Origin: Escherichia phage EI-SP-GF
Direction: 5' to 3' (one strand)
Sequence record: OR992645.1
Length of the DNA: 64,000 nt
The position numbers and the translations under genes were made by a program. Positions 9,461 to 51,557 of the stretch are shown here, piece after piece (the first letter of the stretch is position 1; the number at the start of each line of letters is the position of its first letter). Below the pieces are notes generated by a model. It worked only from the letters and a program-made list of their open reading frames with translations. It did not search any database and had not been told where the DNA came from.

Positions 9461-9717
9461 TACTCTTCCTCCATAGTTTCACCAAATACTTCGATACGAG
9501 CGTCAAGCTCTGTTGCTTTCAGCTCCCCGACAAAATCTTTCAGTTCTTTCTCGTCAAGATCGTATGCCCACACACAAGATGAGCATGCAGATTTCACGAT
9601 TAGCAGTGTAGATACACGGCCTGACTCTGTAATCATGCTCACAATGGTTCCTACAGGGAACGTGTTGATAGCTTTTTTAACTGGGCGTTCAGCTTTAATT
9701 ACTACCTCTGTTGCCAT
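9460..9717 (-). CDS. Hypothetical protein
   Basis: ATG at 9717 preceded by AGAGAGGA RBS (track start 9726 lacks RBS). Confidence 0.5.
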   Translation of the reverse strand: MATEVVIKAERPVKKAINTFPVGTIVSMITESGRVSTLLIVKSACSSCVWAYDLDEKELKDFVGELKATELDARIEVFGETMEEE

Positions 9718-18965: not shown

Positions 18966-20171
18966 ATGATTTTCATCTACGAACACTTCAAAACTCGTAA
19001 AGAAGCACGCGACCGCCGTGCAGAACTTGAGAAGAAGGGTTTCACATGTGCCATTGAGAAAGGTGACACAACCTGGACACTGGCAGTTGGTGCCCCAGAG
19101 TTGTTCGATCCTGACCGTGACAGCGTCTGCTACACCCGTGAGGATTTTGAAACCCGCGAAGAGGCCCGTTTATTTCGATACGGTCTGGAAGATAACGGTA
19201 AGTACGCTATGATCTTAGATTTAGGCGAAGGTTCCGTTAAACGTTGGGGCGTGGTATACCCACTGTGTGTTGTTCACGGTGTGGGGTTCACTGGGGTAGC
19301 AATCAAGTCAGAAGAACCTTTAGTAGAAGTCAAAGATCCGGTGCTGGAGGTGGTGAGCAGTGTGTCTCAGCAACAGACTCGAAGCATCGAGCCTTTGGTG
19401 GTTATTTGCGGGGAACTCCTCCAGATCACCTGCAACGAAGGCATTTTTGAAATTCGCCGCAGTGAAAGTGAGGAAGTTTACCAGAAAGTCTTCGACCATA
19501 TCTCTGTTCAGGAATATGACGAGGCAATTGGTGAAATCCTTGTCTGGCTGGAACGCAAGAATGAGTTCACCACACTTGCAGACAACCTGATCATGAAAGA
19601 TGGTAAGCTCTACTACTACGGTGTAGAGATGCGATCCACCATTGCAAAGAAAATTGAGAAAGATTATGCAGACGGAACACTGGATGACCGCTATGTGAAA
19701 TTCCTCGTTCGCCTGCTACGCAATCCTTCTGCAAAATCTGTAAACATGCTCTACGATTTTATGCAGGCAAACGACATTCAGATTGCAGAAGATGGTCGAA
19801 TCATTTGCTACAAAGGGGTTCAGTTTAACGGCGACAAGTGGGTGGATTGGCACAGTGGTAAAGTCCCACAATACCAGGGGGCTTTTGTATCCATGCCTCG
19901 TAACTTTGTAGAGGATGATCCGGAAGCTGCATGCTCTTATGGCCTGCACTGTGCCAGCAAAGAGTATGCAAAGAGCTACGGAACTGTGATGACGGTTATG
20001 GTTGACCCTGCCGATGTAGTTAGTGTACCTTACCAACACAACAGCGCCAAGTGTCGTGCATGCCGCTACGAAATCGTAGTAGCTCCAGAATCACGCAAAG
20101 ATGGCGACCCAATTGAGTACGTGGTTGACCGCGACGGTAATACTATCGACATTATCTACGAGGAGGCGTAA
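18966..20171 (+). CDS. Hypothetical protein, possibly rIIB-like (by position only)
   Basis: 401 aa ORF directly after rIIA-like gene, AAGGAGA RBS; no motif recognised. Confidence 0.55.
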   Translation: MIFIYEHFKTRKEARDRRAELEKKGFTCAIEKGDTTWTLAVGAPELFDPDRDSVCYTREDFETREEARLFRYGLEDNGKYAMILDLGEGSVKRWGVVYPLCVVHGVGFTGVAIKSEEPLVEVKDPVLEVVSSVSQQQTRSIEPLVVICGELLQITCNEGIFEIRRSESEEVYQKVFDHISVQEYDEAIGEILVWLERKNEFTTLADNLIMKDGKLYYYGVEMRSTIAKKIEKDYADGTLDDRYVKFLVRLLRNPSAKSVNMLYDFMQANDIQIAEDGRIICYKGVQFNGDKWVDWHSGKVPQYQGAFVSMPRNFVEDDPEAACSYGLHCASKEYAKSYGTVMTVMVDPADVVSVPYQHNSAKCRACRYEIVVAPESRKDGDPIEYVVDRDGNTIDIIYEEA

Positions 20172-21541
20172 TGGAAAAAGGGCAGTACGATGTAGGCACA
20201 GATGCTGCCCTTGTTGCAATCATGAGTGGTGAGAATGTCTTCGTAAGTGGACCTGGTGGAACCGGGAAGACATATCTTATCAACATGATCCAGTCCATGT
20301 ATGGAGACTCTTGCATAACGGTTGCCCCGACAGGGGTAGCCGCTTTAAACGTTAATGGAGCAACAGCGCACCGAACTTTCGATCTTGCCGCAGGTGTGAG
20401 CATGGAGTCAGACTGGACAGCAATAAGGGCAAAAACAGCAAAGCCTCTGAAAAGCAAGGCATTTACCATCCTAATTATCGATGAAATTTCTATGATCCGT
20501 GCTGACAAGTTCATAGAGATGGATAGAAAACTCCGCTTTCTTCGGAAAAATGACAAACCTTTCGGGGGCATTCAGGTGTTATTGTTTGGAGATTTCTACC
20601 AAGCACCTCCGGTTGTCTCTTCTATGGAGAAGGAAGCCTACTTCAACTTCTACCACACAGATCTGTGTTGCTATACAGAGTCTTGGGAGGATCTTAATCT
20701 TCACAATATAGCTTTAGTAGACCAGTTCCGTCAGGAATCTGTTCGCTTCGCCACAATGTTGAACTGTGTTCGTGAAGGTCGTCGCATAAAAGAGGTTGTA
20801 GCAGAGCTTAACACTCGTTGCTATCATGGTGGTGTCCCAACCGATGCCTTGACCATCTGTGCCACCAATAAGCAAGCAGAAGAGGTGAACAGACGTTTCT
20901 ATGATGCCATCAAGGCCCCAGAGAAGACCTACATTGGTAAAATGAAAGGTAAGTTCCCCTCCACACTACCTGTGGAGCAGGAAATGAGGCTGAAGATAGG
21001 GATGAAGGTTATGATAACCTCAAACGATGTTGACCCGACACACAAAGTTCCGTACTATGTCAACGGGACACGCGCCACAGTGGTAAAATTCAAGACCAAG
21101 TCTGTGGTGGTTGAGCTGGAAGACGGGACACAGGTTGAAATCGAGCCGAGATTGTGGGAGAATAACGAGTACAAACCTTCCCAGAGGTACAATATTGCCG
21201 AAAGGAAGATGGAGAAGTTCATAGAGAGGGTTGTGATCGGGTCTTATGAGCAACTTCCTTTGAAATCTGGGTACGCAGTAACATCGCATAAAAGTCAAGG
21301 ACTTACGTTAGATTGTTACAACCTAGACCTCGGAAAGAACGGAGCTTTCTCTCCCGGAATGACGTATGTTGCCTTGAGTCGGGTTAAGACGATACAAGGA
21401 ATAAACTTGTTGCGTCCATTAAGAGAGGTGGATATTATTGTTGACCCGAGAGTCGTAGAGTTTTATAATACAACTTTCCCTGGCTTAGACGAGAAAGTCA
21501 GGAAAGATTTTGAAACTAGAGCAGAAAAGGGGGACGTATGA
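20171..21541 (+). CDS. dda: SF1 DNA helicase, Dda/Pif1/RecD-like
   Basis: Walker A GPGGTGKT, motif TVAPTGVAA, Walker B LIIDEISM, later VTSHKSQG. Confidence 0.8.
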   Translation: MEKGQYDVGTDAALVAIMSGENVFVSGPGGTGKTYLINMIQSMYGDSCITVAPTGVAALNVNGATAHRTFDLAAGVSMESDWTAIRAKTAKPLKSKAFTILIIDEISMIRADKFIEMDRKLRFLRKNDKPFGGIQVLLFGDFYQAPPVVSSMEKEAYFNFYHTDLCCYTESWEDLNLHNIALVDQFRQESVRFATMLNCVREGRRIKEVVAELNTRCYHGGVPTDALTICATNKQAEEVNRRFYDAIKAPEKTYIGKMKGKFPSTLPVEQEMRLKIGMKVMITSNDVDPTHKVPYYVNGTRATVVKFKTKSVVVELEDGTQVEIEPRLWENNEYKPSQRYNIAERKMEKFIERVVIGSYEQLPLKSGYAVTSHKSQGLTLDCYNLDLGKNGAFSPGMTYVALSRVKTIQGINLLRPLREVDIIVDPRVVEFYNTTFPGLDEKVRKDFETRAEKGDV

Positions 21542-23183: not shown

Positions 23184-23948
23184 TTGAAATTTATCTACAA
23201 AGACCACTACCACAAAGGTGTTGTGTGGAGTCTATTTGACGGGTCTGGTGGTGCAGTTATTGACTGGGCAAAAGCTGGGTACCTGTGCCTGTGCTTTAAT
23301 GCAGAAGGTGCTGACCACGGTAGTTATGCAGAGGTGATAACCGATCATCCCAATATTCACTATGTGGATTATTGGATTGACCCATGGTTCCCTCAGGAAA
23401 CTTTTTGCATGTACCCAGCTCCAGACTTTATTCTTGCATTTCCTCCGTGCACGCATTTAGCGGTGTCGGGTGCTGCACATTTTAAGAAAAAGCTGGCTAA
23501 GGACCCCCTGATCCAAATTAATGCTGTAAAGGATGCTCGGGTTGCGGAAGAGCTGGGAGAGATTTACGATTGCCCGTGGCATGTAGAGAATCCTGTTGGT
23601 GTTATGTCCACACTGTGGCGCAAACCTGATTACCGTTTTCATCCTTCTGACTATGGCGGGTATTTACCGGAGGATGATGTAAACCCCTGGTTTCCTGAAT
23701 TTATAGCTCCACGTGATGCCTATCCAAAAATAACTTGCGGCTGGATAGGTAATGGATTTATAATCCCGGCCACAAAACCTGTCCCGCAAATAGTTGACGC
23801 GGTTAGCGGGTATTCCATGCAACACGCCAAGCTGGGTGGAAAGAGTGCAAGAACGAAGATGATCCGAAGCCTCACACCACGTGGCTGGGCAAAAGCCGTA
23901 TTCTTAGCAAATGAGCCTGTAGTAAGGAGCAGAATTAATGGGAAGTAA
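23184..23948 (+). CDS. DNA cytosine-5 methyltransferase-like protein (compact)
   Basis: Motif I LFDGSGG, motif IV PPCTHLAVSG, motif VI ENPVGV; start taken as TTG 23184 after AGGAGA RBS because the longer ORF begins inside the terminator. Confidence 0.6.
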   Translation: MKFIYKDHYHKGVVWSLFDGSGGAVIDWAKAGYLCLCFNAEGADHGSYAEVITDHPNIHYVDYWIDPWFPQETFCMYPAPDFILAFPPCTHLAVSGAAHFKKKLAKDPLIQINAVKDARVAEELGEIYDCPWHVENPVGVMSTLWRKPDYRFHPSDYGGYLPEDDVNPWFPEFIAPRDAYPKITCGWIGNGFIIPATKPVPQIVDAVSGYSMQHAKLGGKSARTKMIRSLTPRGWAKAVFLANEPVVRSRINGK

Positions 23949-26016
23949 ATTTATGGCATCTGCATACAACCGTTTCGGTGAGCCAAACCCGAAAGCAACT
24001 AAGTATAAAAGTGGGGGAAGTGTGAAACGAGACTATCGTGATGAAAAAGAAGTTGAAACTGTAGAGACTGTTTTAGAAAATACTAAAATTGTCCCTGTTC
24101 CACAACAAAATATCGGACTGATGGCTGCACAGTATTTCGGTGTACGATCATCCCTATCCCAAGAGGATGGTGTAACTGTTACTGCCACCTACTTCCCGTA
24201 TTATGACCGCTACGGTAATCTATCTGGCTTTAAAAAGCGTGACTGGACAATCCCTAAAGAGCAAAGGGGCCATTTCTCAGTTGTTGGCATAGTAAAAGCC
24301 AACTCCCAGATGTTTGGTCAAAAGCTGTGTGCATCTTCCAACAACCGTAAGCAGATTAACGTTTGTGAGGGAGAAGGTGATGTTATTGCAGCATGGCAGG
24401 CTGCATATCAGGTGCAAGTAAAAGGAATTCTCACCAATGCTAAAGCCCCAGCGAAGGTGGAGCAGTGGGCTAAAGAGGTCCAGGATGGGATCGATGCAGT
24501 TATCAACGGCGGCGATCTTGCAGGAAAACCCTGCCTACCTTTTGTTGGAATTAACTGCGGGTGTGCAAACGCAGTAGACACTTTTGCGAACAATGAGAAA
24601 TTTATCCGTAGCTACGGAACAGTAGTCCTTGCAATGGACAACGATGCAGCTAACGAGGTAGAGAAGCAAAAACACGTTATCAAAGGTGTTGAAGCCACAC
24701 ATAATATCGCGGCATTTTTGATGGCTGATAACGTTTACCACGTGGAATACCCCAGTGAGGTAAACGACCCTGACGGTGTAAAAGATATCCGTGACATGCT
24801 GAAGGCTAAAAAGCTGGAAGATATTGTCAACATGTTCCGTCACCCAGTCAAATATGTGCCTGATGCTGTATCTGATTTAGAAGACTTCTCCATTGAATCT
24901 CTTCGTAAGAAGACTTCTAATGGCGTAGATATCAGCGCGGAGTTCCCTAAATTGCAGAAGATGCTGAAAGGACTTCACAAAGGCACCTTGATGATGCTGA
25001 CAGGCCCATCTGGCGGTGGTAAAACAACTGTAGCCAAGAAACTAGAACACTGCATTGCAAAATACTTGATGGATCCTACATGCCCTAAAGCCGATGATTA
25101 TGAAGAGGATGATCGCCTGTGTCTGATTCACCTTGAAGAGGACCCTGAGGAAGCAATTAACTCTCTATACGCCAACCAGTTGGGGTTTGATGTTAAAGAG
25201 TTTGTTGAAGACCCTAGTCAGTTCCTGACTGATCAGGAGCATGCTGAGATTCACCAATCTTGGGCCAAGGCTGGAAAAATCAAAGTGTTCAAGCATTTTG
25301 GGTCTATTCCTGTAGATGAGTTGATCACTAAGCTTAAACAAATGGTGTGTCTGTATCACTGCCGTTATATTGTGCTGGATCACCTATCCATGGTAATTTC
25401 AGGGCTTAATGTTAAGGATGAGCGAAAAGAGCTGGACATGGCTATGACCCAACTAGCCGCGTTCTGTAAGCAGTTTAATGTATTTATCTTGGTGATCGCT
25501 CACCTGAAACGCACAGAGATTGTGCCTCCAAAGGACAAGGATGGGAATCCGTTACCTTTCTGGTATCCTGTACGAAAAGAGAACCTTCGAGGTAGTGCCG
25601 GATTGGAGCAACTTAGCTGGGTAGTTGTTGGGGTGGAGGCAGAAGAGATGGTGGATCGTTCCCGTGGACGTGTCCGACTGGTAGGTCTTAAAAACCGCCC
25701 AGCAAAAACGTTAGGCATTGCGGATACCTTAGTTATGGATCCTCACACAGGTAAGTTCCATGATGCCAGCAATTGGTACTGGGACAAAGAAATGCAGATG
25801 TTCACAGACGGCGAAGGCGGGGAGGTTGTTTGGAGACCTCAAGCTATGTTTGAGGATCAAGAGCACGCAGTTGTAGAAACACCTGTAGGTAGGGTTGTGG
25901 CTGATAAGGTTGTAACTCCTACTGTTAACCCTGTTGACACACAAGAAGACCTTCCGTATGATGATCCGTCCTCTGACCCTGTTCCCGGTTTTGAAGACGA
26001 TGAAACACCTTTTTAA
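23938..26016 (+). CDS. Bifunctional DNA primase/helicase (TOPRIM primase plus DnaB-like helicase, T7 gp4-like layout)
   Basis: TOPRIM motifs VCEGEGDVIAAW and VVLAMDNDAAN; helicase Walker A GPSGGGKTT and IVLDHLSM; 692 aa. Confidence 0.8.
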   Translation: MGSKFMASAYNRFGEPNPKATKYKSGGSVKRDYRDEKEVETVETVLENTKIVPVPQQNIGLMAAQYFGVRSSLSQEDGVTVTATYFPYYDRYGNLSGFKKRDWTIPKEQRGHFSVVGIVKANSQMFGQKLCASSNNRKQINVCEGEGDVIAAWQAAYQVQVKGILTNAKAPAKVEQWAKEVQDGIDAVINGGDLAGKPCLPFVGINCGCANAVDTFANNEKFIRSYGTVVLAMDNDAANEVEKQKHVIKGVEATHNIAAFLMADNVYHVEYPSEVNDPDGVKDIRDMLKAKKLEDIVNMFRHPVKYVPDAVSDLEDFSIESLRKKTSNGVDISAEFPKLQKMLKGLHKGTLMMLTGPSGGGKTTVAKKLEHCIAKYLMDPTCPKADDYEEDDRLCLIHLEEDPEEAINSLYANQLGFDVKEFVEDPSQFLTDQEHAEIHQSWAKAGKIKVFKHFGSIPVDELITKLKQMVCLYHCRYIVLDHLSMVISGLNVKDERKELDMAMTQLAAFCKQFNVFILVIAHLKRTEIVPPKDKDGNPLPFWYPVRKENLRGSAGLEQLSWVVVGVEAEEMVDRSRGRVRLVGLKNRPAKTLGIADTLVMDPHTGKFHDASNWYWDKEMQMFTDGEGGEVVWRPQAMFEDQEHAVVETPVGRVVADKVVTPTVNPVDTQEDLPYDDPSSDPVPGFEDDETPF

Positions 26017-26074: not shown

Positions 26075-28852
26075 ATGAGTATGTGGTCTTTCGACCTGGA
26101 GGCCTCTGGTTTACTAGAAGACCTAGATCTTTATTATCACTGCGGCTTGTTTAAAGAGCTGAATAAGAACCGTTTTATGCTGTTCCTTCCTCTAAATGAC
26201 CGCACACACTACTCTGAAGAGGATATAGAGAAGGCTAAGAACTTTATTCTGGCAAAGAAAACTCTTTATAAAGATTTTGAAGTTCGCATAGCAGATTTTT
26301 CAGAGTTGGAAGGTTGGCTTACAGGCAATTCTGACTGGTCACCCACAGCTTTGAACTGCCACAACTGCTACAGCTACGACTTTATGCTGATGGAGAGATT
26401 GTCCGGTATTCATTTTGATATGTTCCGTGACCCTAAGTGTATGGGGACTATCAACGACCACCAGGTTAATCTGTTTGATACGTTGGCGATGAGCCGAATC
26501 TTGTGGCCTGATCGCCCTTTACCAAAAGGTTGTCCGGACTCTGTATTCAACCCGGTTACTAAGAAAATGCAGCCTGTTGGTCCTCACGGACTTATGGCAT
26601 GGGGCTACGCCCTTGGTAACCAGAAAGTTCAAATTGATGACTGGCGCGATCTTCCGTTGTGGAAGTATGTGGATCGTGTATTCGAGGACGTTATCATCCA
26701 GGAGCTGCTCTGGAAAGAGCTGGTAGCGGAATCAAAAGGTGTATTCTACGGCAAATCTGACATGCAGAACTTTATGTACGATCCAGCCAAAGAGAAGCCG
26801 AAAGGGTTCAAGAAGATCACCTGGAAGAACGCATTACGTCGAGGCATGCTGCAGCACTTCCTGATGGAGCTGCAGGCCCGTCAGGGTGTATACTTCGACA
26901 TAGATGGAGCTATTGCTTTACGTGACCGTTGCGATGCGTGGATGAAAGAAATAGCTGATCGTGTTGAACCACAACTGCCTTTAAAAGAGCTGTCAATGTC
27001 TCAGCGGCCCAAGTTCCCTGAAAAGCCGTTTAACCAAGACGGGACAATCTCTAATAATGGTTGGAAATGGTTAAAAGATAAGCTTGGCTATCCTGTAGAC
27101 ATGAGCGCTTTAGAGTTCAAAGCCCCGCCTAAGAGAGCATTTACCTCTACAGGGGATGTCAGCAAGATGGGGATAAAATGGTGTGAAGAGATGGGCTGCA
27201 AAGACCCCGATAAGATGGCTGATTTCTTGAGAGGCTATATTAAGGGCACTTCCACACCACACCCTTTGCCTAAAGAGCTGATGGATCAGGCAATAAGTGA
27301 TCTACAGCAGAAGCGAATGCCGGACTGCAAGATACCTATGAAAATCAGCAATCAGGACGACATTAAGCGGTATCTGATCAGCGCTGGCTGGCTCCCGACA
27401 ATGTGGAGAACTAAGGATGTAACTAAAGACAGCAAGAAGAAAGCTCTACCTGATGCAGATGTTGATGCACGAGTATATGCTTATATGGACGAGCTTTTAG
27501 AGTCAGAGTATTGTGACCTAATTATCAACTTCTGGAACAAAACTGATGCTAAGTTCCAGACAACCGTGCACAAGTTCCGAAGCTTTCCTAACTCCGAAAG
27601 GATTAAAAAGGAAGTGTTCGGGAAAATACGTAGAAAAGCCAGGGCACTTATTACTTCTCCGCAACTGAAAGATACGTTTGGACACCTGTGTCCGAATCTT
27701 GAAAAATTGAACGGAGAGATGGCTAAAGATATCGTCTTGTGGTTATCATTGCGAAACCGCAGATCGGTCCTTGACCCAATCAAGGAGGATAAGGTTGATA
27801 CTGGTCTTCTTAATCACCCACGTTTGAAGATTGACCATAAGCTTCCTGCTAAAAGTTCTGGGCTAACAAACACTTCCAGACAGAAACACAGTATTTGTGC
27901 AAACATGCCTAAACCATCTCCTAAAGTGGTTATGGGTAAAGAGATGCGTAGTCTATGGGGTGTTCCTCCTGGATACTTTCAGATCGGTATTGACGGGTCC
28001 AACTTAGAGCAGCTTATCGGGGCTTGGGGTGCCTTTGAGTTCGACAACGGCCTGTATTATGATGTTGTAAGTAACGGAGACGCACACCAAAACAATGCTG
28101 AGGCATATACAAAAGTAGCAGGCAGAGAGGTGTCCCGTAACGACGGTAAACCTATCACGTATGGTGTTATGTACGGGGCACAAAAAGATAAAGTTGCAGA
28201 TATGCTGGACATCTCTCCAGAGTTGGGGCAAAGGGTAATAGATGCACTTTGGGATGCCAACCCCGGTCTTAAGGGGCGCAAAGAGGATCTGGAGAAATTC
28301 TGGGAAGCAACAGGTAAGAAGTTTATCTACTCTTTTGACGGTCATGCTATTTGGACACGCTCTAAACACTCTTTGCTTAATGCATATCAGCAAAATGGCG
28401 GTGCATCACTGTGTGACCTAGTTGGGATACTCATGCACCACCAGATGGTGAAGCGTGGATGGTATGATGAGGGTGTTCGTCGTATTATCTATTACCATGA
28501 CGAATATCAGCTTCAAGTGCCTGACACACCTAAGTATAAAACCGTATACACCTTCGACACAATTGAAGAGCTGGAAACATTTAAAGCCCAACAAGAGGCT
28601 AAACTTCATGTGTTCGACGGTCATAAGTACAAAAAGGCACGCAAAGATGAGGACGGAAACGAAGTGGTTGACAAGGATGGAAATACGGTATACGATCCTA
28701 TCTTGAACGATGACGGAAAGCTTGAACTTATCTGGAGCCCTGTGGGCGAAATGGTGGTGCATTGCTTCTGGCAGGCTTCTAAAATGATGGGCGTTCCGTT
28801 CCAGATCACAGGTGAATACTTGTGCGGTCGTAACTGGGGCGATTGTCACTAA
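26075..28852 (+). CDS. DNA polymerase, family A, with 3'-5' exonuclease motif
   Basis: Exo motif FDLEASGL at N-terminus; motif B RNDGKPITYGVMYGA; motif C YYHDEYQLQV; 925 aa. Confidence 0.85.
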   Translation: MSMWSFDLEASGLLEDLDLYYHCGLFKELNKNRFMLFLPLNDRTHYSEEDIEKAKNFILAKKTLYKDFEVRIADFSELEGWLTGNSDWSPTALNCHNCYSYDFMLMERLSGIHFDMFRDPKCMGTINDHQVNLFDTLAMSRILWPDRPLPKGCPDSVFNPVTKKMQPVGPHGLMAWGYALGNQKVQIDDWRDLPLWKYVDRVFEDVIIQELLWKELVAESKGVFYGKSDMQNFMYDPAKEKPKGFKKITWKNALRRGMLQHFLMELQARQGVYFDIDGAIALRDRCDAWMKEIADRVEPQLPLKELSMSQRPKFPEKPFNQDGTISNNGWKWLKDKLGYPVDMSALEFKAPPKRAFTSTGDVSKMGIKWCEEMGCKDPDKMADFLRGYIKGTSTPHPLPKELMDQAISDLQQKRMPDCKIPMKISNQDDIKRYLISAGWLPTMWRTKDVTKDSKKKALPDADVDARVYAYMDELLESEYCDLIINFWNKTDAKFQTTVHKFRSFPNSERIKKEVFGKIRRKARALITSPQLKDTFGHLCPNLEKLNGEMAKDIVLWLSLRNRRSVLDPIKEDKVDTGLLNHPRLKIDHKLPAKSSGLTNTSRQKHSICANMPKPSPKVVMGKEMRSLWGVPPGYFQIGIDGSNLEQLIGAWGAFEFDNGLYYDVVSNGDAHQNNAEAYTKVAGREVSRNDGKPITYGVMYGAQKDKVADMLDISPELGQRVIDALWDANPGLKGRKEDLEKFWEATGKKFIYSFDGHAIWTRSKHSLLNAYQQNGGASLCDLVGILMHHQMVKRGWYDEGVRRIIYYHDEYQLQVPDTPKYKTVYTFDTIEELETFKAQQEAKLHVFDGHKYKKARKDEDGNEVVDKDGNTVYDPILNDDGKLELIWSPVGEMVVHCFWQASKMMGVPFQITGEYLCGRNWGDCH

Positions 28853-34759: not shown

Positions 34760-35185
34760 ATGATTTATGAAATGCCAAAACTGATTCGTGACGATGCACG
34801 AAACGCCCACACCTTTATTATGGGCAAGCGCATGGATATTATTTGCCACAAAGACTTCTGGGAAGGAAGCTACTTCACAGAATATTTTGGAAAAATGGAT
34901 GATGGCCTACTGATCCAGTTTTACACCGATGCGGAAAACAACATTAGTTGGGAGTTCGAGACCGAAGATATCCATAAACTTTTCACCTTCCTCGACATTA
35001 AGGTTAAGGCCAAGTTTGAAGAAGGTGAGTGCGACGATTGTGGATTTTATGAGGTAACAGATTTCTATCTTCCGAGCGGTAAAAACCTTTACTATGAAAG
35101 CCACTTCGGTAACTCCAATATGCCACAGTGCTGGACTGAGTTTTTTGAAATTGTGGAAGAGGAGCTGGAATATCGTGATTATTGA
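34760..35185 (+). CDS. Hypothetical protein
   Basis: GGAGAA RBS; 141 aa. Confidence 0.6.
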   Translation: MIYEMPKLIRDDARNAHTFIMGKRMDIICHKDFWEGSYFTEYFGKMDDGLLIQFYTDAENNISWEFETEDIHKLFTFLDIKVKAKFEEGECDDCGFYEVTDFYLPSGKNLYYESHFGNSNMPQCWTEFFEIVEEELEYRDY

Positions 35186-35633
35186 TACTGTAGAGGGAGA
35201 TTTAATCTCCCTTTTTAAGAGCGGTGCTGGTCACCTGATCCACGGTTGTAACTGCTTCCACACAATGGGTAAGGGTGTAGCAAAACAGATTGCCCGTGAG
35301 TTCCCTCAAGCATTGGAAGCTGATAAAATGACTATGCACGGTTGCCTAAGCAAACTGGGCGCGTTCTCCCGCTGGGAGCACTTATCTCCGATAGGTATTG
35401 TCTACGGAATAAATCTGTATACTCAGTTCTACCCAGGGCCTAATGCTGAATATTTCTCAATACTGAAAGGCTTTGAGCGAGTCAATGAAGTATTTGAGGG
35501 GTCGATTTTACCATTCTACATCCCTAAGATCGGGTGCGGCATAGGCGGTTTGAAGTGGGAACATGTAGAGGACATTATTAACCTTGCCACTTTTGATATA
35601 GATATTATAGTGGTGGAGTACAAAGGGTGTTGA
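35175..35633 (+). CDS. Macro domain protein, DarG/Poa1p-like ADP-ribosyl hydrolase family
   Basis: GDLISLFKSGAGHLIHGCNCFHTMGKGVAKQIAREFP and IPKIGCGIGGLKWEHVEDII match the DarG-type macro signature from memory; start GTG 35175 uncertain (in-frame ATG 35094 would overlap upstream gene). Confidence 0.7.
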   Translation: MIIDTVEGDLISLFKSGAGHLIHGCNCFHTMGKGVAKQIAREFPQALEADKMTMHGCLSKLGAFSRWEHLSPIGIVYGINLYTQFYPGPNAEYFSILKGFERVNEVFEGSILPFYIPKIGCGIGGLKWEHVEDIINLATFDIDIIVVEYKGC

Positions 35634-36943: not shown

Positions 36944-37133
36944 GCTTAAATCTGCATGGAACATTGCTGTGGGTGATGAGATCCGCATTCCGGGTGGGAA
37001 GACCGTTATGAAGATATCCCGTATTGAATACGAAGGAGACCGTGTATTCCACATCTTTGCAGAAGATGGTCGGGAAATTTATGTACAAGCAGGCTCTCAC
37101 ATCTATATCCGTAAGAAAGGGGATGACAAATGA
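36930..37133 (+). CDS. Hypothetical protein
   Basis: AAGGAGGG RBS; 67 aa. Confidence 0.55.
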   Translation: MQMFKLKSAWNIAVGDEIRIPGGKTVMKISRIEYEGDRVFHIFAEDGREIYVQAGSHIYIRKKGDDK

Positions 37134-37459
37134 CAGAGATCATTATTTCAACTGCAGGGTATGTATTCCTGACAATCATTGCTCTGACCATTTTGGTGGC
37201 GGTATATGGATTTGTTATTCTACCTATTCTTGAGACAATTAGTTTGTGTCGGTGTTGGAGAAAGGCTTACGGTCCACAGCCGTGGAGGGACTGGCCCCAC
37301 CTGGTTCGCATAGCGTTCTCTTATGCTTATGATCACGCCAGCAGTGCATGCATAACAGGGTATCACGCTCACAATTGGAACTGGGAAGGGTTGGGTAGAT
37401 GGAATGTTATAAAGACCATACCTCTACGTATGCACAAGCCTAAAAACAAAGACAATTGA
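37130..37459 (+). CDS. Membrane protein (one N-terminal TM helix)
   Basis: Hydrophobic stretch AGYVFLTIIALTILVAVYGFVILPIL; AAGGGG RBS. Confidence 0.55.
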   Translation: MTEIIISTAGYVFLTIIALTILVAVYGFVILPILETISLCRCWRKAYGPQPWRDWPHLVRIAFSYAYDHASSACITGYHAHNWNWEGLGRWNVIKTIPLRMHKPKNKDN

Positions 37460-37480
37460 TACTTGAAAATCCCTGGCACA

Positions 37481-37530
37481 TCAAGTATAAGGAGGATTTC
37501 TAAAATGGATTTCCTCCTTTTGATATTTTA
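37481..37530 (+). terminator. Hairpin plus T-rich tract; candidate terminator closing the replication block
   Basis: AAGGAGG...CCTCCTT inverted repeat followed by TTGATATTTTA. Confidence 0.4.
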
Positions 37531-37770
37531 CCTAGCCGGATATTTTAAAATTCTTAGAAAATCAGAAAATGGATCGAAAACTAAAATGGATTTTTCAAGA
37601 CAGGCGCGATAAGATGTGCTGCTCATTCTATCGTTCGCACCGTACTTTAAGTTACTATTCCAGATTTTCCGCACATACCCTCACCCTTCTACCAGAACTT
37701 TCCCAGCTTACCTTTGACCTTTTATAACAATAAGCCCATTATTCTCAGTAGGTTTTGATACATCTCTCTC

Positions 37771-37858
37771 AGTACTCGATCTGTTTTTCGTTTCAAAGAT
37801 TGAATTTTCTGAAAATTTTTCTCGATAAATTTCTTAGTACTCGATCTGTTTTTCGTTT
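37771..37858. repeat. Direct repeats (23 bp AGTACTCGATCTGTTTTTCGTTT x2, plus degenerate third copy) in non-coding region
   Basis: Identical 23-mers at 37771-37793 and 37836-37858; related CGATTTTTCGTTTTCGG at about 37915. Confidence 0.7.
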
Positions 37859-38060
37859 TCTGAATCAGATTTTCTGGAAATCGTTCCGGAGCTCGACCTG
37901 AAATTTTTGGGGACGAAATCGATTTTTCGTTTTCGGAAATGGATTTTTAAAATTTGTATATGGAAATATTTAAGGAGGTATTATTTTATATAGAATTGTC
38001 ACGGTAGGTAATTAGCATGCTAACTAAATTTATGAAATGCGAAAAGTTCTCATTTAGAAT

Positions 38061-38260
38061 TTTGAATGATAATCATTCTCGTTTGCAGAATAACGGGCAC
38101 CCCCGGTGATTGTCTCCCGGCCCCTGTTGCCCCGGCTTGTTATTATAGTATCACACAGGACAAAGAAAGCAAGGATTTTTTGCATAAATTTTTAAATGAT
38201 AATGATAACCGTTCTCATTTTATGCAGCGCCCATCCCCGGTGGTTGTCTCCCCCGTCACC
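38061..38260. repeat. Duplicated roughly 65 bp GC-rich element
   Basis: Two copies sharing AATGATAAT...TTCTC.TTT...CCCCGGTG.TTGTCTCCC, at about 38061-38130 and 38190-38260. Confidence 0.55.
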
Positions 38261-38719
38261 GGTGCCTGCCGTCCTTTCGATAGGTATATTGTGCCACCTG
38301 TCGGGGCCGCTGTCAACACTTTTCAAAAAAAAAATTCTAACCTGATGCGCTAACCGTTGCAACCTGGCGGGGCCAGCCTGACCAGGTAGGAGAGAGTGAA
38401 AGCTTGCAAACCTGGTAGGCCTATGCTACAGGGCAGGTAACAATTGAAGAGGAGGTACAAAAATGAAAGGTAATTTGATCCCCTGGAAATGTAGCGATTA
38501 ATGACGCTGAGGCTATCGCCCTGGTTGAAAAGGCTATGGCGGGAGCGTTGGAACATAAAGAAGAGTACGAAAAAATGATGGTTAACCTGGTAGGGGCGGC
38601 GGCTGGAGAATTCTGCCCAAAAAATAATTCTAACTAATGGTTGACAGCTCGGATAGTTCTGTTATTCTTATCCTTGCAAGGTGAACAACACCACACTAAT
38701 TAACAGAGAGGATAAAATC

Positions 38720-38917
38720 ATGAACGCCTACGGAATTAAAGTACGTCGCAACACTTGCCAGGCCGTCACCGATCAAATGATTTGCCAGGTGGACGTAACC
38801 ATCAACAACGGGCAAGGCCTTTATAAATTCCGTCGCGGTCAGAGCTATACCCGGCAACAGCTTAATCGTTGCGCCCTGACAAAAGGCCAGATCAACCACT
38901 GGTTTAATAAAAAATAA
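38720..38917 (+). CDS. Small hypothetical protein
   Basis: ATG 38720 after GAGAGGATAAAATC RBS. Confidence 0.55.
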   Translation: MNAYGIKVRRNTCQAVTDQMICQVDVTINNGQGLYKFRRGQSYTRQQLNRCALTKGQINHWFNKK

Positions 38918-38920
38918 GTA

Positions 38921-38949
38921 TTGACATACAGTCCGACACCAAATACACT
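38921..38949 (+). promoter_or_regulatory. Sigma70-like promoter (TTGACA-17-TACACT)
   Basis: TTGACA 38921-38926; AAGAGGATAAAATC RBS and ATG 38982 downstream. Confidence 0.55.
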
Positions 38950-38981
38950 AAAAGCACAAAAGACACTAAGAGGATAAAATC

Positions 38982-39380
38982 ATGAAAACCACTACCTTTA
39001 ATTTTGATAATGCGGACTTTTCTTTTTCTGATGTCAAGAACTGCCGCCGTGATCGTGGATTTTACAAGGCTTATAATCTGGTGGGCCTGGACGATGACAA
39101 TAATTTGCACGAAGTAGCTGAGATCCGGTATTATGCCGCCGCCAGCGGGAACACTCAATACTGCGTTTTTTGGATTCACGACAACAAGAACAATAAGTAC
39201 GGTTATACTGGCGGGAAGGCGAGCGGTCACGGTTACGATAAAGCTAATGCAGCACTTGAGAGCGCATTAAATGCTATGGGGATCACTGCCAACGGCTGGA
39301 TCTATGAAGAAGAGTTTTTGTCGGCACTTGCTAACCACCTGGGCTATAAAAAGCACATTGTAACATGCGCCCACGAATAA
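38982..39380 (+). CDS. Hypothetical protein
   Basis: 132 aa ORF with strong RBS. Confidence 0.6.
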   Translation: MKTTTFNFDNADFSFSDVKNCRRDRGFYKAYNLVGLDDDNNLHEVAEIRYYAAASGNTQYCVFWIHDNKNNKYGYTGGKASGHGYDKANAALESALNAMGITANGWIYEEEFLSALANHLGYKKHIVTCAHE

Positions 39381-39387
39381 AAAATTA

Positions 39388-39416
39388 TTGACACGCTGCA
39401 AAATTAAAGTAAACTA
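39388..39416 (+). promoter_or_regulatory. Promoter (TTGACA-N13-TAAAGTAAACT type) with 5' UTR hairpin
   Basis: TTGACA 39388-39393; same TAAAGTAAACT block as in the 44 bp repeat; hairpin GGCGGGAATGTTTCCCGCC follows. Confidence 0.55.
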
Positions 39417-49017: not shown

Positions 49018-49036
49018 TTTCTTAACTGAATTATCA

Positions 49037-49063
49037 AGGGGCTTAAAGGCCCCTTTCTTTTTG
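49037..49063 (+). terminator. Rho-independent terminator
   Basis: GGGGC-ttaaag-GCCCC then TTTCTTTTT. Confidence 0.7.
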
Positions 49064-49670
49064 TCTGCTCTTCTCCTACCATAAACGGCCCTACCTGGCA
49101 AGTGGAATAATTGACTAGCCATCAATCCCACACACTGTACAAATATACATGGAAAATAACTATTGCATAATCTTTCATTGTGTGGTAGCAAGGCCATTTT
49201 TACCCGTTTTCTCTCCCAAAAGTGCACGTAATGCAGCTATTGCACAAATTTTAACCTGATGCATATCTCCAATATCTTGTCAACAACTAAAAATCTTTAT
49301 AAGTCATACACTTACACAGCATCGAAAGCGTGTTCTACGCGAAAAATCGAGTATAACTATAGCCGCCAGATCTCAGAATTCACGTACGCACGCCATTCTA
49401 TAGCCTGCAAAGTATTTATTCCAACCACAGAATAACGGAATAGTCAATACCTGCATAAAATAATTATTCGTGTAAACTGCATAACATAAATCAGCTCAGG
49501 TGTCAACATTTTTCGTAAACAGTCCGAAATTATCACGATGAGTTATCATAAACAGAGAAATCTTTAGTCGTCTAATGTTTACTGTACATTACTATACTGA
49601 CTGGAATCATTAGATGACTAAGAAAAAGATAAGAAATAATTAATAATGTAATTGTTTTACCTGTAACAAT

Positions 49671-49849
49671 AAGGCAACTATGCAAACGAATGGCATGGCG
49701 CGACGGAGTCGCGACATAATATAAAAGCAGTAACCATCACCCCCGTGATGGTTTTTCTGCAATCTATTATTCAGATCATAGTTGCCTTGTATTTAGTTAA
49801 TCATGACATAACAAGCAAGGCAACTGTAGATCTTCTAATAGTTGCCCTG
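49671..49849. repeat. Inverted repeats of AAGGCAACT / AGTTGCC(T/C)T (four half-sites) plus CGCGAC-gga-GTCGCG palindrome
   Basis: AAGGCAACT at 49671 and 49816; ATAGTTGCC at 49777 and 49838; GC palindrome at about 49698-49715. Confidence 0.65.
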
Positions 49850-49879
49850 CTTTTATATTATGTCATAGATTATTAACTT

Positions 49880-50110
49880 ATTAACTGTCAGCTTGTTGGC
49901 TGTTAGCTTGTCAATTGTTATCTTGTTAATTGTTTTCATGCAAACGAATGTCATGGCTTATCATCTCTGTGTAAACAGTTTGGGCGTAAACTATTCAGGC
50001 GTAAACAGTCTATGAGTAAACAGTGAGATATGGAATAGTAACAGCCGTTATTGTGTCATATTGTGCTGCAGTGCGTTATGTTGTGCCATATTGTGTCACT
50101 ATTATGTCAG
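49880..50110. repeat. Three short tandem-repeat families in non-coding DNA (CTTGTT-type, GTAAACAGT x4-5, ATATTGTG x3)
   Basis: GTAAACAGT copies between about 49971 and 50035; TTGTTAGCTTGT-like units 49885-49935; ATATTGTG units 50058-50095. Confidence 0.65.
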
Positions 50111-51557
50111 ACAAGTTTTTCCTCTCTTTGTCAAGTGCTGCATGAAAAATTTACAAACTGGTATGGTAGCATTTTTGCGGCCCTGTTTACATTCAGTTGT
50201 GTATGTATAACCCTTGTTGTGTGGGCGTTTAGACGTCTGGACGGTCAGAAGTCCGCAGGTTAATATCTAATCTATTGGCTGCTGACTATATCCCACACAA
50301 ATAGTAAGAAATATAATTGTTATATGCGTAAACAGTAACCCATGTTATCAATCCCTGTATGTATCGCCAGTGGTGCGCATAATGGGTATTATGTTAAATT
50401 GCCCGTAATGATAACCATTCTCACAATGATAGGTATTCTCATTCACTCCCACAAGATAGATTGCAAATGTTGTGCCACTGTGTGAACGGCCTGGCCTATT
50501 AATTTGCCTCACTGCCTCGATATTTGAGAATTATTATAAAAATGAGAAGTATTCCCATTCCGTCCGCCTGGCAGCACTCCAGTCGCTACCGGCTCCTGAC
50601 AGGGCAGCACTCCTGTAGGACAAGCACAAAATCGGGGCATAACTGCCTGTTCAGATATTTCTGGCTAACTCTTCAGGCCTGTGTGGGAAAAGCCAACCTC
50701 TCCGGCGGCGGGGAGGGGTCAATTAAAAAATTTAGGTGGTGTATGAAGCGCTCTTCAGGCAAGGTGTGTATTATGGGATGAAACCCTCTTCAGGTGATGA
50801 TATTTGTGGGTGTGATATTTGCTGGAAAGCCAGATATGACGGGACTCCCGGCGGGGCAGGGGTAGTACAGGCAGGGAAAATGTGAGGATGTGGTGGGAGT
50901 AAATTGATCAGGCAGGTAGGATATGGAATATGTTACAAGTATGTTAAATATGGAGGCAGGATATTTGTAAGATTTGTGTGTAAAATCAAAGACTTAAGTG
51001 GTGTTGTGGTATTTTCTATAAATAATTCAAGTTTAATAGGTAATATTTGTCTCTATCCGCTTTGTGTGGTAAACAGATTCTAATTGAATTGGTTTACAAG
51101 TGTATATAAAGTATACAAATTAAAGATATAAGAAACCCCCCTCCCCCTTCGGCTACCATTCACCTTTTCCTCTGACTGGTACTTAAACACTTATTCAGAC
51201 TCTTCAGGTTATCACCCATATACTATATGGCAGTGACTGGTGTCCTCCGGCCCCTCTTTCGTCACCCGTCCGCTTCGCCATGCTAATGCCATAGCTAAAG
51301 GTTCGGTTGTTCACCCTGTTCACTCAGGTGTATCTCCATACCCCTTCAAACCGAAGAGAACAGAAAACCCGAATTACTCGGTAAAAGAAAAGAGAAGAAC
51401 TTAATTTTATCAGGATAGGCAAGAATGTCAAGGGATGACTGCTCACTAAACAAGCAAACAGTCATGTGTGGTAGGTAAGTGATTGTGGTGGTGGAAAATT
51501 TAGTTGAAAGATGTGTTATAGTGCTTCCAGCACTTTAGCCGGGCGGCTAATTGTGTG

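What the first reader, a model, noticed from the sequence alone, without database searches (positions are those of the whole stretch)
37460..38719. 1.2 kb non-coding stretch with iteron-like direct repeats at the end of the replication module
Directly after the replication genes there is a gap with two identical 23 bp direct repeats (AGTACTCGATCTGTTTTTCGTTT) about 65 bp apart plus a degenerate third copy, several AAAATGGATTT units, and a duplicated GC-rich element. Iterons next to replication genes are a classic origin signature.
Basis: seen in the sequence. Interest (0 to 1): 0.55.

Follow-up and report, generated by a model that had tools for sequence, protein, structure and literature searches.

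The report
Conserved repeat-and-Fur-box control region
A 1-kb gene-free stretch of an rV5-like E. coli phage is a strongly conserved control region that combines three phage-specific repeat modules, the easiest-to-melt DNA in the window, inward-facing promoters and binding sites for the host iron sensor Fur; it may be a replication origin, but that is unproven.

Summary
The window is an rV5-like Vequintavirus. The gap, however, lies 8.6 kb downstream of the DNA polymerase gene, not directly after it.

The gap is syntenic and its layout is kept in five Vequintavirinae genera:
- a terminator hairpin;
- GATATTTT and AAAATGGAT motifs;
- three about 65-bp repeat modules, whose core sequence differs by genus;
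- the least stable 60 bp of the whole 64 kb;
- near-consensus Fur boxes;
- an unstructured C-rich segment;
- comparatively conserved sigma70 promoters on the minus strand, which fire back towards the repeats.

All seven Fur-type boxes in the window lie in its two non-coding gaps (0.2 expected by chance). The same palindrome occurs in phi92-like phages, in the T5 injection-stop region and in at least 120 uncultured viral contigs.

My best reading is a transcription-activated replication origin coupled to Fur (confidence about 0.35). A non-origin regulatory or insulator region is nearly as likely. A T5-like DNA-entry site and a Fur decoy remain open. A packaging site, a structured RNA and protein coding are disfavoured.

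The parts
37489..37531 (+). Intrinsic-terminator-like hairpin (AAGGAGGA / TCCTCCTT) followed by a U-tract. It ends the upstream + strand operon. The first AAAATGGATTT unit sits in its loop.
   Evidence: fold energy -17.7 kcal/mol, z -3.7, 0 of 200 shuffles as good. Invariant in 12 Vequintavirus genomes. Coordinates.
37522..37546 (+). Two GATATTTT motifs (37522 and 37539). The same motif is clustered in the other non-coding gap.
   Evidence: 6 of the 7 + strand GATATTT[GT] sites in the 64 kb lie in the two gaps. GATATTTG is repeated 2-3 times at the same place in CR3, GAP31, SSE121, BIS47 and Hena1.
37502..37593 (+). Three AAAATGGAT units (37502, 37566, 37583). A fourth, GAAATGGAT, lies at 37936 inside repeat module 3.
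   Evidence: The block 37485-37600 is nearly invariant across the genus, including phita32, whose upstream gene is different. AAATGG(A/T)TTT arrays occur at the same place in other genera.
37600..37770 (.). Poorly conserved spacer, C-rich and G-poor on the + strand.
   Evidence: many substitutions, in contrast to the invariant flanking blocks.
37771..37835 (+). Repeat module 1: the 23-bp box AGTACTCGATCTGTTTTTCGTTT followed by a short A/T inverted repeat (GAATTTTC-T-GAAAATT).
   Evidence: Conserved in the genus, with some changes in rV5, Alma and nomine.
37836..37890 (+). Repeat module 2: an exact second 23-bp box followed by GATTTTC-TG-GAAATC.
   Evidence: Invariant in all 12 genomes.
37891..37950 (+). 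Repeat module 3 (degenerate): GCTCGACC, then CGATTTTTCGTTTTC, then GAAATGGATTTTT. On the + strand it can fold into a 16-bp G:U-rich hairpin followed by a U-run.
   Evidence: 72% to the reference copy. (terminator-like site).: -15.1 kcal/mol, z -1.9 on the + strand, against -5.9 on the - strand.
37937..37996 (.). A/T-rich segment that is the least stable 60-bp duplex of the entire 64-kb window. It resembles a DNA unwinding element.
   Evidence: nearest-neighbour dG -62.0, against a mean of -80.2 with sd 4.3. It ranks second with 100-bp windows.
38036..38083 (.). Fur-box pair of cassette 1. The degenerate box is at 38036-38054 and the strong box AATGATAATCATTCTCGTT at 38065-38083, 29 bp start-to-start.
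   Evidence: 3 and 1 mismatches to AATGAKAATNATTMTCATT.. This consensus equals the published Xanthomonas Fur box (PMC1790865). This stretch is the only part of the gap found by distant blastn in other genera.
38062..38091 (+). Candidate Fur-occluded + strand promoter, TTGAAT-18-CAGAAT, with the Fur box lying between the hexamers. It is weaker and less certain than the minus-strand promoters.
   Evidence: TTGAAT and CAGAAT are kept in most lineages, but the -10 is degraded in BIS47, L117 and L055.
38095..38137 (.). C-rich segment of cassette 1 (G 13, C 19), with the conserved core CGGTGATTGTCTC.
   Evidence: No consensus fold or covariation on either strand. Single-sequence z-scores +1.65 and -1.1. 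No Rfam match.
38142..38172 (-). Minus-strand sigma70-type promoter of cassette 1. The -10 is TATAAT (reverse complement of 38142-38147). The -35 is TTGCTT (reverse complement of 38167-38172), with a long 19-nt spacer. It fires leftwards towards the Fur boxes and the repeats.
   Evidence: At the equivalent position all 10 lineages have TTGnnn, 16-18 nt, then nAnnnT, with unrelated spacer sequences.
38195..38219 (.). Fur boxes of cassette 2. Two boxes overlap with a 6-nt offset, at 38195 and 38201.
   Evidence: 3 and 2 mismatches; 16 of 19 to the classical E. coli consensus GATAATGATAATCATTATC, with 0.02 expected.
38229..38280 (.). C-rich segment of cassette 2 (G 13, C 23), with the core CGGTGGTTGTCTC.
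38288..38316 (-). Minus-strand promoter of cassette 2: TTGACA-17-CACAAT with an extended -10 TG.
   Evidence: 10 of 12 matches. The hexamers are invariant while the spacer varies within the genus.
38334..38362 (-). A further minus-strand promoter-like site, TTGCAA-17-TAGAAT.
   Evidence: 9 of 12 matches.
38463..38640 (+). Decayed small early gene with the ribosome-binding site GAGGAGG. Only 12 codons remain open in this window.
   Evidence: 55-60 aa in WalterGehring, YN3, FV3, BP9 and Alma; 45-46 aa in ime and nomine; truncated to 10-22 aa in the window, rV5, pangalan, phita32 and L128.
38641..38668 (+). First strong early promoter (TTGACA-16-TATTCT with TG), serving the gene at 38720-38917. 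It marks the right edge of the region.
   Evidence: Annotated as P195B in rV5.

Best explanation
**What is shown**

Positions 37485-38330 are a conserved, non-coding, multi-part cis-acting region of Vequintavirinae. From left to right it holds:
- a terminator that closes the upstream operon;
- GATATTTT and AAAATGGAT motifs;
- three repeat modules, whose genus-specific cores mark them as sites for a phage-encoded protein;
- the most easily melted DNA of the window;
- an array of host Fur boxes with 29-bp phasing;
- two tandem cassettes, each a C-rich segment plus a sigma70 promoter that transcribes leftwards, back through the Fur boxes into the A/T-rich and repeat DNA.

**What is inferred**

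I read this as the phage's replication origin or initiation-control region, of the transcription-activated kind seen in the T7 primary origin, T4 oriF/oriG and ColE1.
1. Host RNA polymerase starts at the minus-strand promoters. It makes a G-rich, untranslated transcript.
2. That transcript opens or primes the adjacent unwinding element.
3. A phage protein bound to the three modules organises the entry of the T7-type primase-helicase and PolA.
4. Fur bound between promoter and unwinding element, together with a Fur-occluded opposing promoter, ties firing to host iron status. That would make sense because ribonucleotide reductase, and hence dNTP supply, depends on iron.
For: - **Synteny and architecture.** The gap is syntenic in Vequinta-, Certre-, Seuna-, Mydo- and Henunavirus, and partly in Phapecoctavirus.
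- **Conservation pattern.** Within the genus, blocks 37485-37600, 37770-37960 and 38000-38330 are almost invariant. The spacer between them and the 3' end of the flanking gene vary.
- **Repeat modules.** There are three in every genus, spaced 74-78 and 63-71 bp apart. The core is CTCGATCG in four genera and CTTGAGRGG in both of the two downstream modules of Henunavirus; its first module reads CTCGAAAGG. Phapecoctavirus has unrelated 72-nt repeats at the same place.
- **Unwinding element.** 37937-37996 is the least stable 60-mer of the 64 kb, z +4.2.
- **Minus-strand promoter.** It is kept as TTGnnn-16/18-nAnnnT, with variable spacers, in 10 lineages. The cassette-2 promoter scores 10 of 12.
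- **Fur boxes.** Seven sites with up to 3 mismatches are found in the window, all in the two gaps, against 0.2 expected. The 29-bp phasing is shared with GAP31, CR3 and anhysbys. The consensus equals a published Fur box.
- **Not an RNA.** No structured RNA was detected.
- **Not coding.** The 95-aa ORF is frameshifted in 3 of 12 genomes and absent in other genera.
- **Replisome type.** It is T7-like: PolA with a DnaB-type primase-helicase.
- **Not the genome end.** The physical terminus of a relative maps to the other gap, so this is not the packaging site.
Against: - There is no direct replication evidence of any kind.
- The 65-78-bp repeat spacing is unlike classical iterons.
- No initiator or DNA-binding gene could be identified next to the region. 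The 275-aa neighbour found in other genera has no homologue here.
- There are no DnaA boxes and no GATC enrichment.
- Cumulative GC skew does not turn at 37-38 kb. The rV5 authors likewise found skew changes only where transcription direction changes.
- The G over C bias of the leftward transcript is modest: 13 G against 19-23 C on the + strand.
- In the window's genus the cassette-1 promoter has a poor -35 and a 19-nt spacer.
- In T5, Fur-type palindromes sit in the injection-stop region, while the origins map near the genome centre.
- A Fur roadblock on an essential origin transcript would be odd in iron-replete cultures, where these phages grow well.
Confidence: 0.35

Rival explanations
1. 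It is a transcription-control and insulator region, not an origin.
- The terminator and the C-rich spacer stop the upstream operon.
- The three modules are operators or architectural sites for a phage regulator, possibly as curved upstream DNA.
- The Fur boxes gate face-to-face promoters. Their short, untranslated and mutually interfering transcripts set the timing of the neighbouring early genes, or their iron dependence.
For: - The terminator hairpin has z -3.7.
- The promoters are convergent, with transcription start sites roughly 40-50 bp apart, and a Fur box lies between the -35 and -10 of the + strand candidate.
- In 11 of 120 unrelated viral contigs, the same palindrome lies 4-16 nt downstream of a TTGACn-N16-18-TAnnnT promoter. 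That is the position of an operator.
- In Seuna- and Mydovirus the leftward unit includes a real 61-63-aa gene.
- The region sits exactly at the boundary between two co-directional gene blocks.
Against: - It does not explain why the least stable DNA of the window and three genus-specific repeat modules are kept next to promoters that have no gene downstream in this genus.
- The early genes have their own strong promoters.
- The repeat core occurs nowhere else in the window, so it is not a general promoter or operator motif.
Confidence: 0.3
2. It is a DNA-entry or host-factor docking region analogous to the T5 injection-stop signal. It would mark the inner edge of a roughly 11-kb terminal segment of small host-takeover genes. 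There, host proteins (Fur) and a phage protein would hold or pause the incoming genome, and the leftward promoters could help draw in the remainder.
For: - T5 Repeat Region 3 is also a 1.2-kb untranslated stretch of repeats at the inner end of a roughly 10-kb pre-early segment.
- That T5 region contains Fur-type palindromes, together with a LexA-like box and DnaA boxes.
- The 514-bp terminal repeat of the related phage KPP-1 lies in the other gap. This would place the present gap about 11-13 kb from a genome end.
- Both gaps share Fur boxes and GATATTTK motifs.
Against: - Two-step injection has never been reported for these phages.
- PhageTerm called three Vequintavirus genomes circularly permuted, so fixed ends are unproven for this genus.
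- There are no DnaA boxes here.
- No large A1-like gene lies in the early block; the largest ORF there is 207 aa with no Pfam hit.
- The function of the palindromes in T5 is itself unknown.
Confidence: 0.13
3. The region acts as a Fur decoy. The seven or more high-affinity Fur boxes per genome, multiplied by replication, would titrate host Fur, as in the classical Fur titration assay. This would de-repress host iron uptake, and the Fur-repressed RNR genes, in favour of phage DNA synthesis. The other motifs would be unrelated to this role.
For: - The boxes are clustered, phased and near-consensus.
- They lie in two non-coding gaps rather than upstream of particular genes.
- 59 of 120 viral loci carrying the palindrome have two to seven boxes.
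- From general knowledge, multicopy Fur boxes de-repress the Fur regulon.
Against: - This accounts for only about 200 bp of the region.
- It does not explain the fixed position of the boxes next to promoters and repeats across subfamilies.
- Some genera carry a single box here (SSE121, Hena1).
Confidence: 0.1
4. It is a packaging (pac) site, a structured small RNA gene, or unannotated small protein genes.
For: - GATATTTK motifs are shared with the gap that holds the terminal repeat in KPP-1.
- GenBank records annotate assorted small ORFs here.
Against: - The terminal repeat maps about 8 kb away in KPP-1.
- Rfam finds nothing.
- There is no consensus structure or covariation, and folds are no better than shuffles.
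- ORF calls disagree between records.
- The longest ORF is frameshifted in 3 of 12 genomes and has a stop after 6 codons in anhysbys.
Confidence: 0.05

Closest known systems
Iteron-type origins (lambda ori; plasmids RK2, pSC101, R6K; P1 oriR)
   Same: Both have direct repeats of about 20 bp next to an A/T-rich, easily melted segment. Both show repeat sequences that co-vary with the lineage, as expected for a cognate binding protein.
   Different: - Only three repeats are present, embedded in about 65-bp modules and spaced 65-78 bp apart rather than about 22 bp.
- There is no initiator gene around or beside them.
- There are no DnaA boxes and no GATC clustering.
Transcription-activated or primed origins (T7 primary origin with phi1.1A/B plus an A/T-rich region; T4 oriF/oriG promoter plus unwinding element; ColE1 RNA II / RNA I)
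   Same: - Promoter(s) point into an A/T-rich unwinding element.
- The transcript is untranslated and G-biased.
- An opposing promoter is present, as with ColE1 RNA I.
- The replisome is T7-like.
   Different: - The promoters are host sigma70-type.
- The unwinding element is about 140 nt from the start site rather than adjacent to it.
- Fur boxes lie in between.
- No RNA structure comparable to RNA I or RNA II is present.
- Nothing has been tested experimentally.
Bacteriophage T5 injection-stop-signal region (Repeat Region 3 of the left terminal repeat)
   Same: Both are 1.2-kb untranslated, highly conserved mosaics of direct repeats and palindromes. Both sit at the inner edge of a roughly 10-kb block of small early genes. 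Both contain Fur-type palindromes.
   Different: - T5 has paired DnaA boxes, a LexA-like palindrome and a nick site, all absent here.
- The T5 region lies within a 10-kb terminal repeat.
- Two-step transfer is documented only for T5-like phages.
Fur boxes of Fur-repressed bacterial promoters (E. coli 19-bp consensus; Xanthomonas, Shewanella and Bacillus 9-1-9 consensus)
   Same: The 9-1-9 palindrome AATGAKAATNATTMTCATT is matched with 1-3 mismatches. The boxes overlap or are phased, as in natural Fur operators. One box lies between the -35 and -10 of a candidate promoter.
   Different: - They are located in a virulent phage, in gene-free DNA.
- There is no iron-related gene downstream.
- The phage consensus prefers G/C at the fourth position of each half-site (GAGAAT / ATTCTC).

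Membership tests
Iteron-containing replication origin | At least three direct repeats of about 17-22 bp, conserved among relatives | tested here: met
   There are two exact 23-mers and one degenerate copy. Three modules are present in every genus examined.
Iteron-containing replication origin | Repeats closely spaced in helical register (about 11 or 22 bp) | tested here: not met
   Spacing is 65 and about 55-74 bp here, and 74-78 and 63-71 bp in other genera.
Iteron-containing replication origin | Adjacent A/T-rich DNA unwinding element | tested here: met
   37937-37996 is the least stable 60-bp duplex of the 64 kb.
Iteron-containing replication origin | Cognate initiator gene adjacent to or overlapping the repeats | tested here: not met
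   The neighbours have no Pfam domain and only unknown-function PHROGs. The neighbour found in other genera is absent here. Binding itself is not testable with these tools.
Iteron-containing replication origin | Host DnaA boxes or GATC clusters, common in such origins | tested here: not met
   There are no TTWTNCACA sites in the gap, and 5 GATC sites against about 7 expected.
Iteron-containing replication origin | Supports initiation of replication | not testable with these tools
   This needs origin mapping or a plasmid replication assay.
Transcription-activated origin (T7 / T4 / ColE1 type) | Promoter directed into an A/T-rich unwinding element, with no coding function downstream | tested here: met
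   Minus-strand promoters lie at 38142-38172 and 38288-38316, and are conserved across lineages. No conserved ORF lies downstream.
Transcription-activated origin (T7 / T4 / ColE1 type) | Persistent RNA-DNA hybrid, or an RNA-to-DNA transition | not testable with these tools
   Only a modest G bias of the leftward transcript can be shown.
Fur box | 19-bp 9-1-9 palindrome matching the Fur consensus | tested here: met
   38065 has 1 mismatch, 38201 has 2, and 38036 and 38195 have 3 each. 38198 matches the classical E. coli consensus at 16 of 19. The consensus is identical to the published Xanthomonas Fur box.
Fur box | More frequent than chance, and conserved in relatives | tested here: met
   7 sites are found against 0.2 expected, all in the two gaps. 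This is the only part of the gap retained across subfamilies. Two composition-matched control palindromes gave 0 hits in IMG/VR, against at least 120 for the Fur palindrome.
Fur box | Overlaps a promoter that it represses | tested here: inconclusive
   The box lies inside the candidate promoter TTGAAT-18-CAGAAT, and at about +50 to +70 of the minus-strand promoter. No transcript data are available.
Fur box | Bound by Fur-Fe2+ | not testable with these tools
   This needs EMSA or footprinting, a Fur titration assay, or ChIP.
T5-type injection stop signal | Untranslated repeat and palindrome region at the inner end of the first-entering terminal segment | tested here: inconclusive
   The position relative to a genome end is inferred only from the KPP-1 terminal repeat. 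Vequintavirus genomes were reported as permuted.
T5-type injection stop signal | Paired DnaA boxes within inverted repeats | tested here: not met
   There are none in the gap.
Structured non-coding RNA | Match to a known family, or a stable fold with covariation | tested here: not met
   Rfam gave no significant hit. RNAalifold gave -1.5 kcal/mol with 0-1 compensatory pairs. Fold z-scores were +1.65 and -1.1.

The most novel reading that the evidence does not exclude
Fur boxes may be a widespread, previously unremarked feature of virulent phage control regions. The same 9-1-9 palindrome is found here, in all Vequintavirinae genera examined, in phi92-like phages, in the T5 injection-stop region and in at least 120 uncultured viral contigs. 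In those contigs it often lies just downstream of strong early promoters, or beside DnaA boxes. It often occurs in arrays, which have 29-bp phasing in the rV5-like and phi92-like genomes examined. Under this reading, lytic phages use the host iron sensor as a checkpoint or architectural factor. That factor would gate origin firing, early transcription or genome entry.
Probability: 0.3. Interest if true: 0.8.

Novelty: new variant of a known kind. Interest (0 to 1): 0.58.

Why it matters
- No replication origin or cis-control region has been mapped for rV5-like phages. These are broad-host-range O157 phages used in typing and in biocontrol. This work delimits an 850-bp candidate, with defined parts that can be mutated.
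- The Fur boxes give a concrete, testable link between host iron status and the development of a strictly lytic phage. That link is relevant in the iron-limited gut.
- Their presence in the T5 injection-stop region offers a new candidate host factor for a long-standing puzzle.
- In the papers searched here, Fur boxes in phage DNA were discussed only for temperate-phage cargo genes.

Tried and rejected
- **Known RNA families.** Rfam at gathering and at E-value thresholds, on the window and on 7 related loci, gave nothing credible.
- **RNA structure of the GC-rich element.** RNAalifold on both strands found no consensus structure. Single-sequence folds were inconsistent between lineages and no better than shuffles.
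- **Coding potential.**
  - ORF annotations differ between 10 GenBank records.
  - The 95-aa ORF starting inside the Fur box is broken in Alma, pangalan and phita32, and absent in other genera.
  - The minus-strand 68-aa ORF has no homologue.
- **Packaging site or genome end.** The KPP-1 terminal repeat lies in the other gap.
- **Host origin features.** DnaA boxes, GATC enrichment and a GC-skew turn are all absent.
- **Capture from host or plasmid.** There is no match in 5,426 E. coli genomes. The only PLSDB match is a mislabelled rV5-like phage genome.
- **Candidate initiator next door.** There are no Pfam domains and no homologue of the 275-aa neighbour seen in other genera.
- **A + strand promoter at 37714 that could transcribe the repeats.** It is not conserved in rV5.
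- **A loose IMG/VR pattern.** It returned essentially only chance matches.
- **Element 2 of other genera as an RNA.** A quick alifold was unconvincing.
- **Literature.** I found no paper linking Fur boxes to Vequintavirinae or T5 in the library searched.
Full report
**Identity and context**

The window is an rV5-like myovirus of genus Vequintavirus. The region 37000-39400 is 98% identical to phage ECP32 and 91% identical to rV5. On the + strand, the replication genes are:
- the PIF1-like helicase, 20171-21541;
- the DnaB-type primase-helicase, 23938-26016;
- family-A DNA polymerase, 26075-28852 (annotation of WalterGehring).

About 25 small ORFs follow. They include an endonuclease VII and a macro-domain protein. 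The gap therefore starts 8.6 kb after the polymerase gene, not directly after it.

To the right of the gap lies a run of small genes, each with a sigma70 promoter. This run reaches a second non-coding gap at about 49.0-51.1 kb, where the direction of transcription reverses.

**Checking the observation**

- The 23-mer AGTACTCGATCTGTTTTTCGTTT occurs exactly at 37771 and 37836, and a degenerate third copy follows. Its core is found nowhere else in the 64 kb.
- AAAATGGAT occurs at 37502, 37566 and 37583, and GAAATGGAT at 37936.
- The duplicated element (38052-38118 and 38188-38252) is real.
- One part of the gap is not primordially non-coding. Positions 38463-38640 are a decayed 58-aa gene.

**Conservation within the genus**

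I aligned 12 Vequintavirus genomes of 82-98% identity. Three blocks are almost invariant:
- 37485-37600;
- 37770-37960;
- 38000-38330.

They are separated by a freely varying spacer (37600-37770) and followed by an indel-rich stretch (38340-38460). These blocks are better conserved than the end of the upstream gene. In phita32 that gene is replaced, and homology resumes exactly at 37485. ORFs annotated inside the gap differ from record to record. The longest one is frameshifted in 3 of 12 genomes.

**Conservation across genera**

Distant blastn retains only 38036-38111 in other genera. Reading the syntenic gaps directly tells more. I examined CR3 and P7_Pc (Certrevirus), GAP31 and SSE121 (Seunavirus), BIS47 and KPP-1 (Mydovirus), Hena1 (Henunavirus) and several IMG/VR contigs. 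All show the same order of parts:
1. GATATTTG, two or three times;
2. AAATGG(A/T)TTT arrays;
3. three repeat modules;
4. one to four palindromes of the form AATGAGAATCATTCTCATT;
5. a C-rich segment;
6. a minus-strand promoter.

The three modules are spaced 74-78 and then 63-71 bp apart in every genus. Their core is CTCGATCG in four genera, but CTTGAGRGG in the two downstream modules of each Henunavirus genome (the first module reads CTCGAAAGG). The phi92-like phage anhysbys has unrelated 72-nt repeats in the same place. Change that is concerted within a genome but differs between lineages points to a phage-encoded binding protein, not a host factor.

**The palindromes are Fur boxes**

- The phage consensus is letter-for-letter the published Xanthomonas Fur-box consensus AATGAgAATcATTctCATT. 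That paper reports 84% identity between this consensus and the Shewanella and Bacillus Fur consensus sequences (PMC1790865).
- One site matches the classical E. coli 19-mer at 16 of 19 positions.
- Scoring AATGAKAATNATTMTCATT with up to 3 mismatches gives seven sites in the 64 kb against 0.2 expected. All lie in the two non-coding gaps: 38036, 38065, 38195 and 38201 in this one, and 50407, 50425 and 50541 in the other.
- Neighbouring boxes are 29 bp apart here, in GAP31, in CR3 and in anhysbys.
  - 59 of those 120 loci carry two to seven boxes.
  - 11 have a strong promoter ending 4-16 nt upstream of the box.
  - 4 have a consensus DnaA box within 150 nt.
- T5-sized contigs were among the hits. 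T5 itself carries such boxes, together with a LexA-consensus palindrome and DnaA boxes, in the injection-stop Repeat Region 3.
- I found no paper that mentions Fur in this connection.

**The GC-rich element**

It matches no Rfam family. It has no consensus fold or covariation on either strand. It folds no better than shuffled sequence.

What is conserved next to it is a minus-strand promoter. All ten lineages have TTGnnn, then 16-18 nt of unrelated spacer, then nAnnnT, then CAT(A/G)GCG. The window has two such cassettes:
- -10 TATAAT at 38147-38142;
- TTGACA-17-CACAAT at 38316-38288.

A weaker + strand candidate, TTGAAT-18-CAGAAT, encloses the Fur box and faces them. The leftward transcripts are untranslated and mildly G-rich. 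They run through the Fur boxes into 37937-37996, which is the least stable 60-bp duplex in the window, and then into the repeat modules.

**Interpretation**

Two things are demonstrated. The region is a conserved cis-acting DNA region with distinct parts, and it contains genuine Fur-type boxes. Its function is inferred.

The layout is promoter, then untranslated transcript, then unwinding element, next to sites for a phage protein. The phage has a T7-type replisome. This fits a transcription-activated origin best, and I rate that reading at about 0.35.

Several points count against it, as listed under evidence against:
- the repeat spacing is not iteron-like;
- no initiator is identified;
- there are no DnaA boxes and no skew signal;
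- in T5, similar Fur-type palindromes sit far from the mapped origins.

The alternatives are:
- a purely regulatory or insulator role, about 0.3;
- a T5-like entry or docking role, about 0.13;
- Fur titration, about 0.1.

A packaging role is unlikely, because the 514-bp terminal repeat of KPP-1 lies in the other gap.

**Verdict**

Its interpretation is plausible but unproven, and it missed the most informative component, the Fur boxes. The region is a new variant of known kinds of element, namely an origin-like control region and Fur operators. It is of moderate to good interest because every part is directly testable.

Noticed in passing
window 49020-51100: A second, 2.1-kb non-coding gap lies at the convergent junction of the + and - gene blocks.
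- It contains GTAAACAG six times, GATATTTG/T four times and three Fur-type boxes (50407, 50425, 50541).
- It also holds the second least stable DNA of the window.
- The equivalent gap of Mydovirus KPP-1 holds the published 514-bp direct terminal repeat, so this is probably the physical genome end.
   Followed up: partly
L139 (T5, AY587007.1) 531-840, which is record 9330-9640: The T5 injection-stop Repeat Region 3 contains a consensus LexA box (palindrome D, TACTGTATAAATATACAGTA). It also contains several Fur-type palindromes, for example AAATGAGAATCATTATCATTT, beside the known DnaA boxes. The Davison preprint discusses only DnaA.
   Followed up: partly
IMG/VR loci L010-L129: The palindrome AATGAGAATCATTCTCATT is massively over-represented in uncultured viral contigs: at least 120 loci, against 0 for two composition-matched controls.
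- One sub-group has it directly after TTGACA-N17-TAAAAT-CGGCGCC promoters.
- Some loci have it beside triple DnaA boxes (L049, L104).
   Followed up: partly
L004 2640-2670, L005 2640-2665, L007 2640-2665, L003 4150-4170: In Certre-, Seuna- and Mydovirus and in anhysbys, the minus-strand promoter is preceded by GTAAA-N5-GTAAA. On the + strand this reads CTTTACAAATCTTTACAAA. The motif has the form of a CpxR box, and it is absent from the window.
   Followed up: no
L004 2679-2800 and equivalents in L003, L005-L009, L061, L117, L130: A conserved GC-rich 'element 2' of about 110 nt (CTACCGGCGATCCACCTTCCGACC...GCCCCGCCTTTTCGCCGTGGGGTGGCG) has its own minus-strand promoter. The G:U pattern hints at a + strand helix, UACCGG with CCGGUA. 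It has no Rfam match and no counterpart in the window.
   Followed up: partly
L005 2817-3008 (-), L007 2819-3004 (-), L130 11190-11381: A leftward 61-63-aa gene (the GAP31_044 family) is 60-92% identical between Seuna- and Mydovirus. It heads the leftward transcription unit in those genera. It has no homologue in the window.
   Followed up: partly
window 38463-38640: A small early gene with a strong ribosome-binding site is intact (58 aa) in FV3, BP9 and WalterGehring. A 2-nt deletion frameshifts it to 12 codons here. It is independently broken in rV5, pangalan and phita32.
   Followed up: yes
PLSDB record CP057073.1 17474-17997: A 137,565-bp record filed as an E. coli 'plasmid', from pooled cattle faeces, is in fact an rV5-like phage genome. 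It may reflect a carrier state or contamination of the culture.
   Followed up: no
window 35094-35633: An ORF upstream of the gap carries a Macro domain (Pfam E 2e-7) and matches a PHROG annotated as phosphatase. This suggests a possible ADP-ribose-processing function.
   Followed up: no
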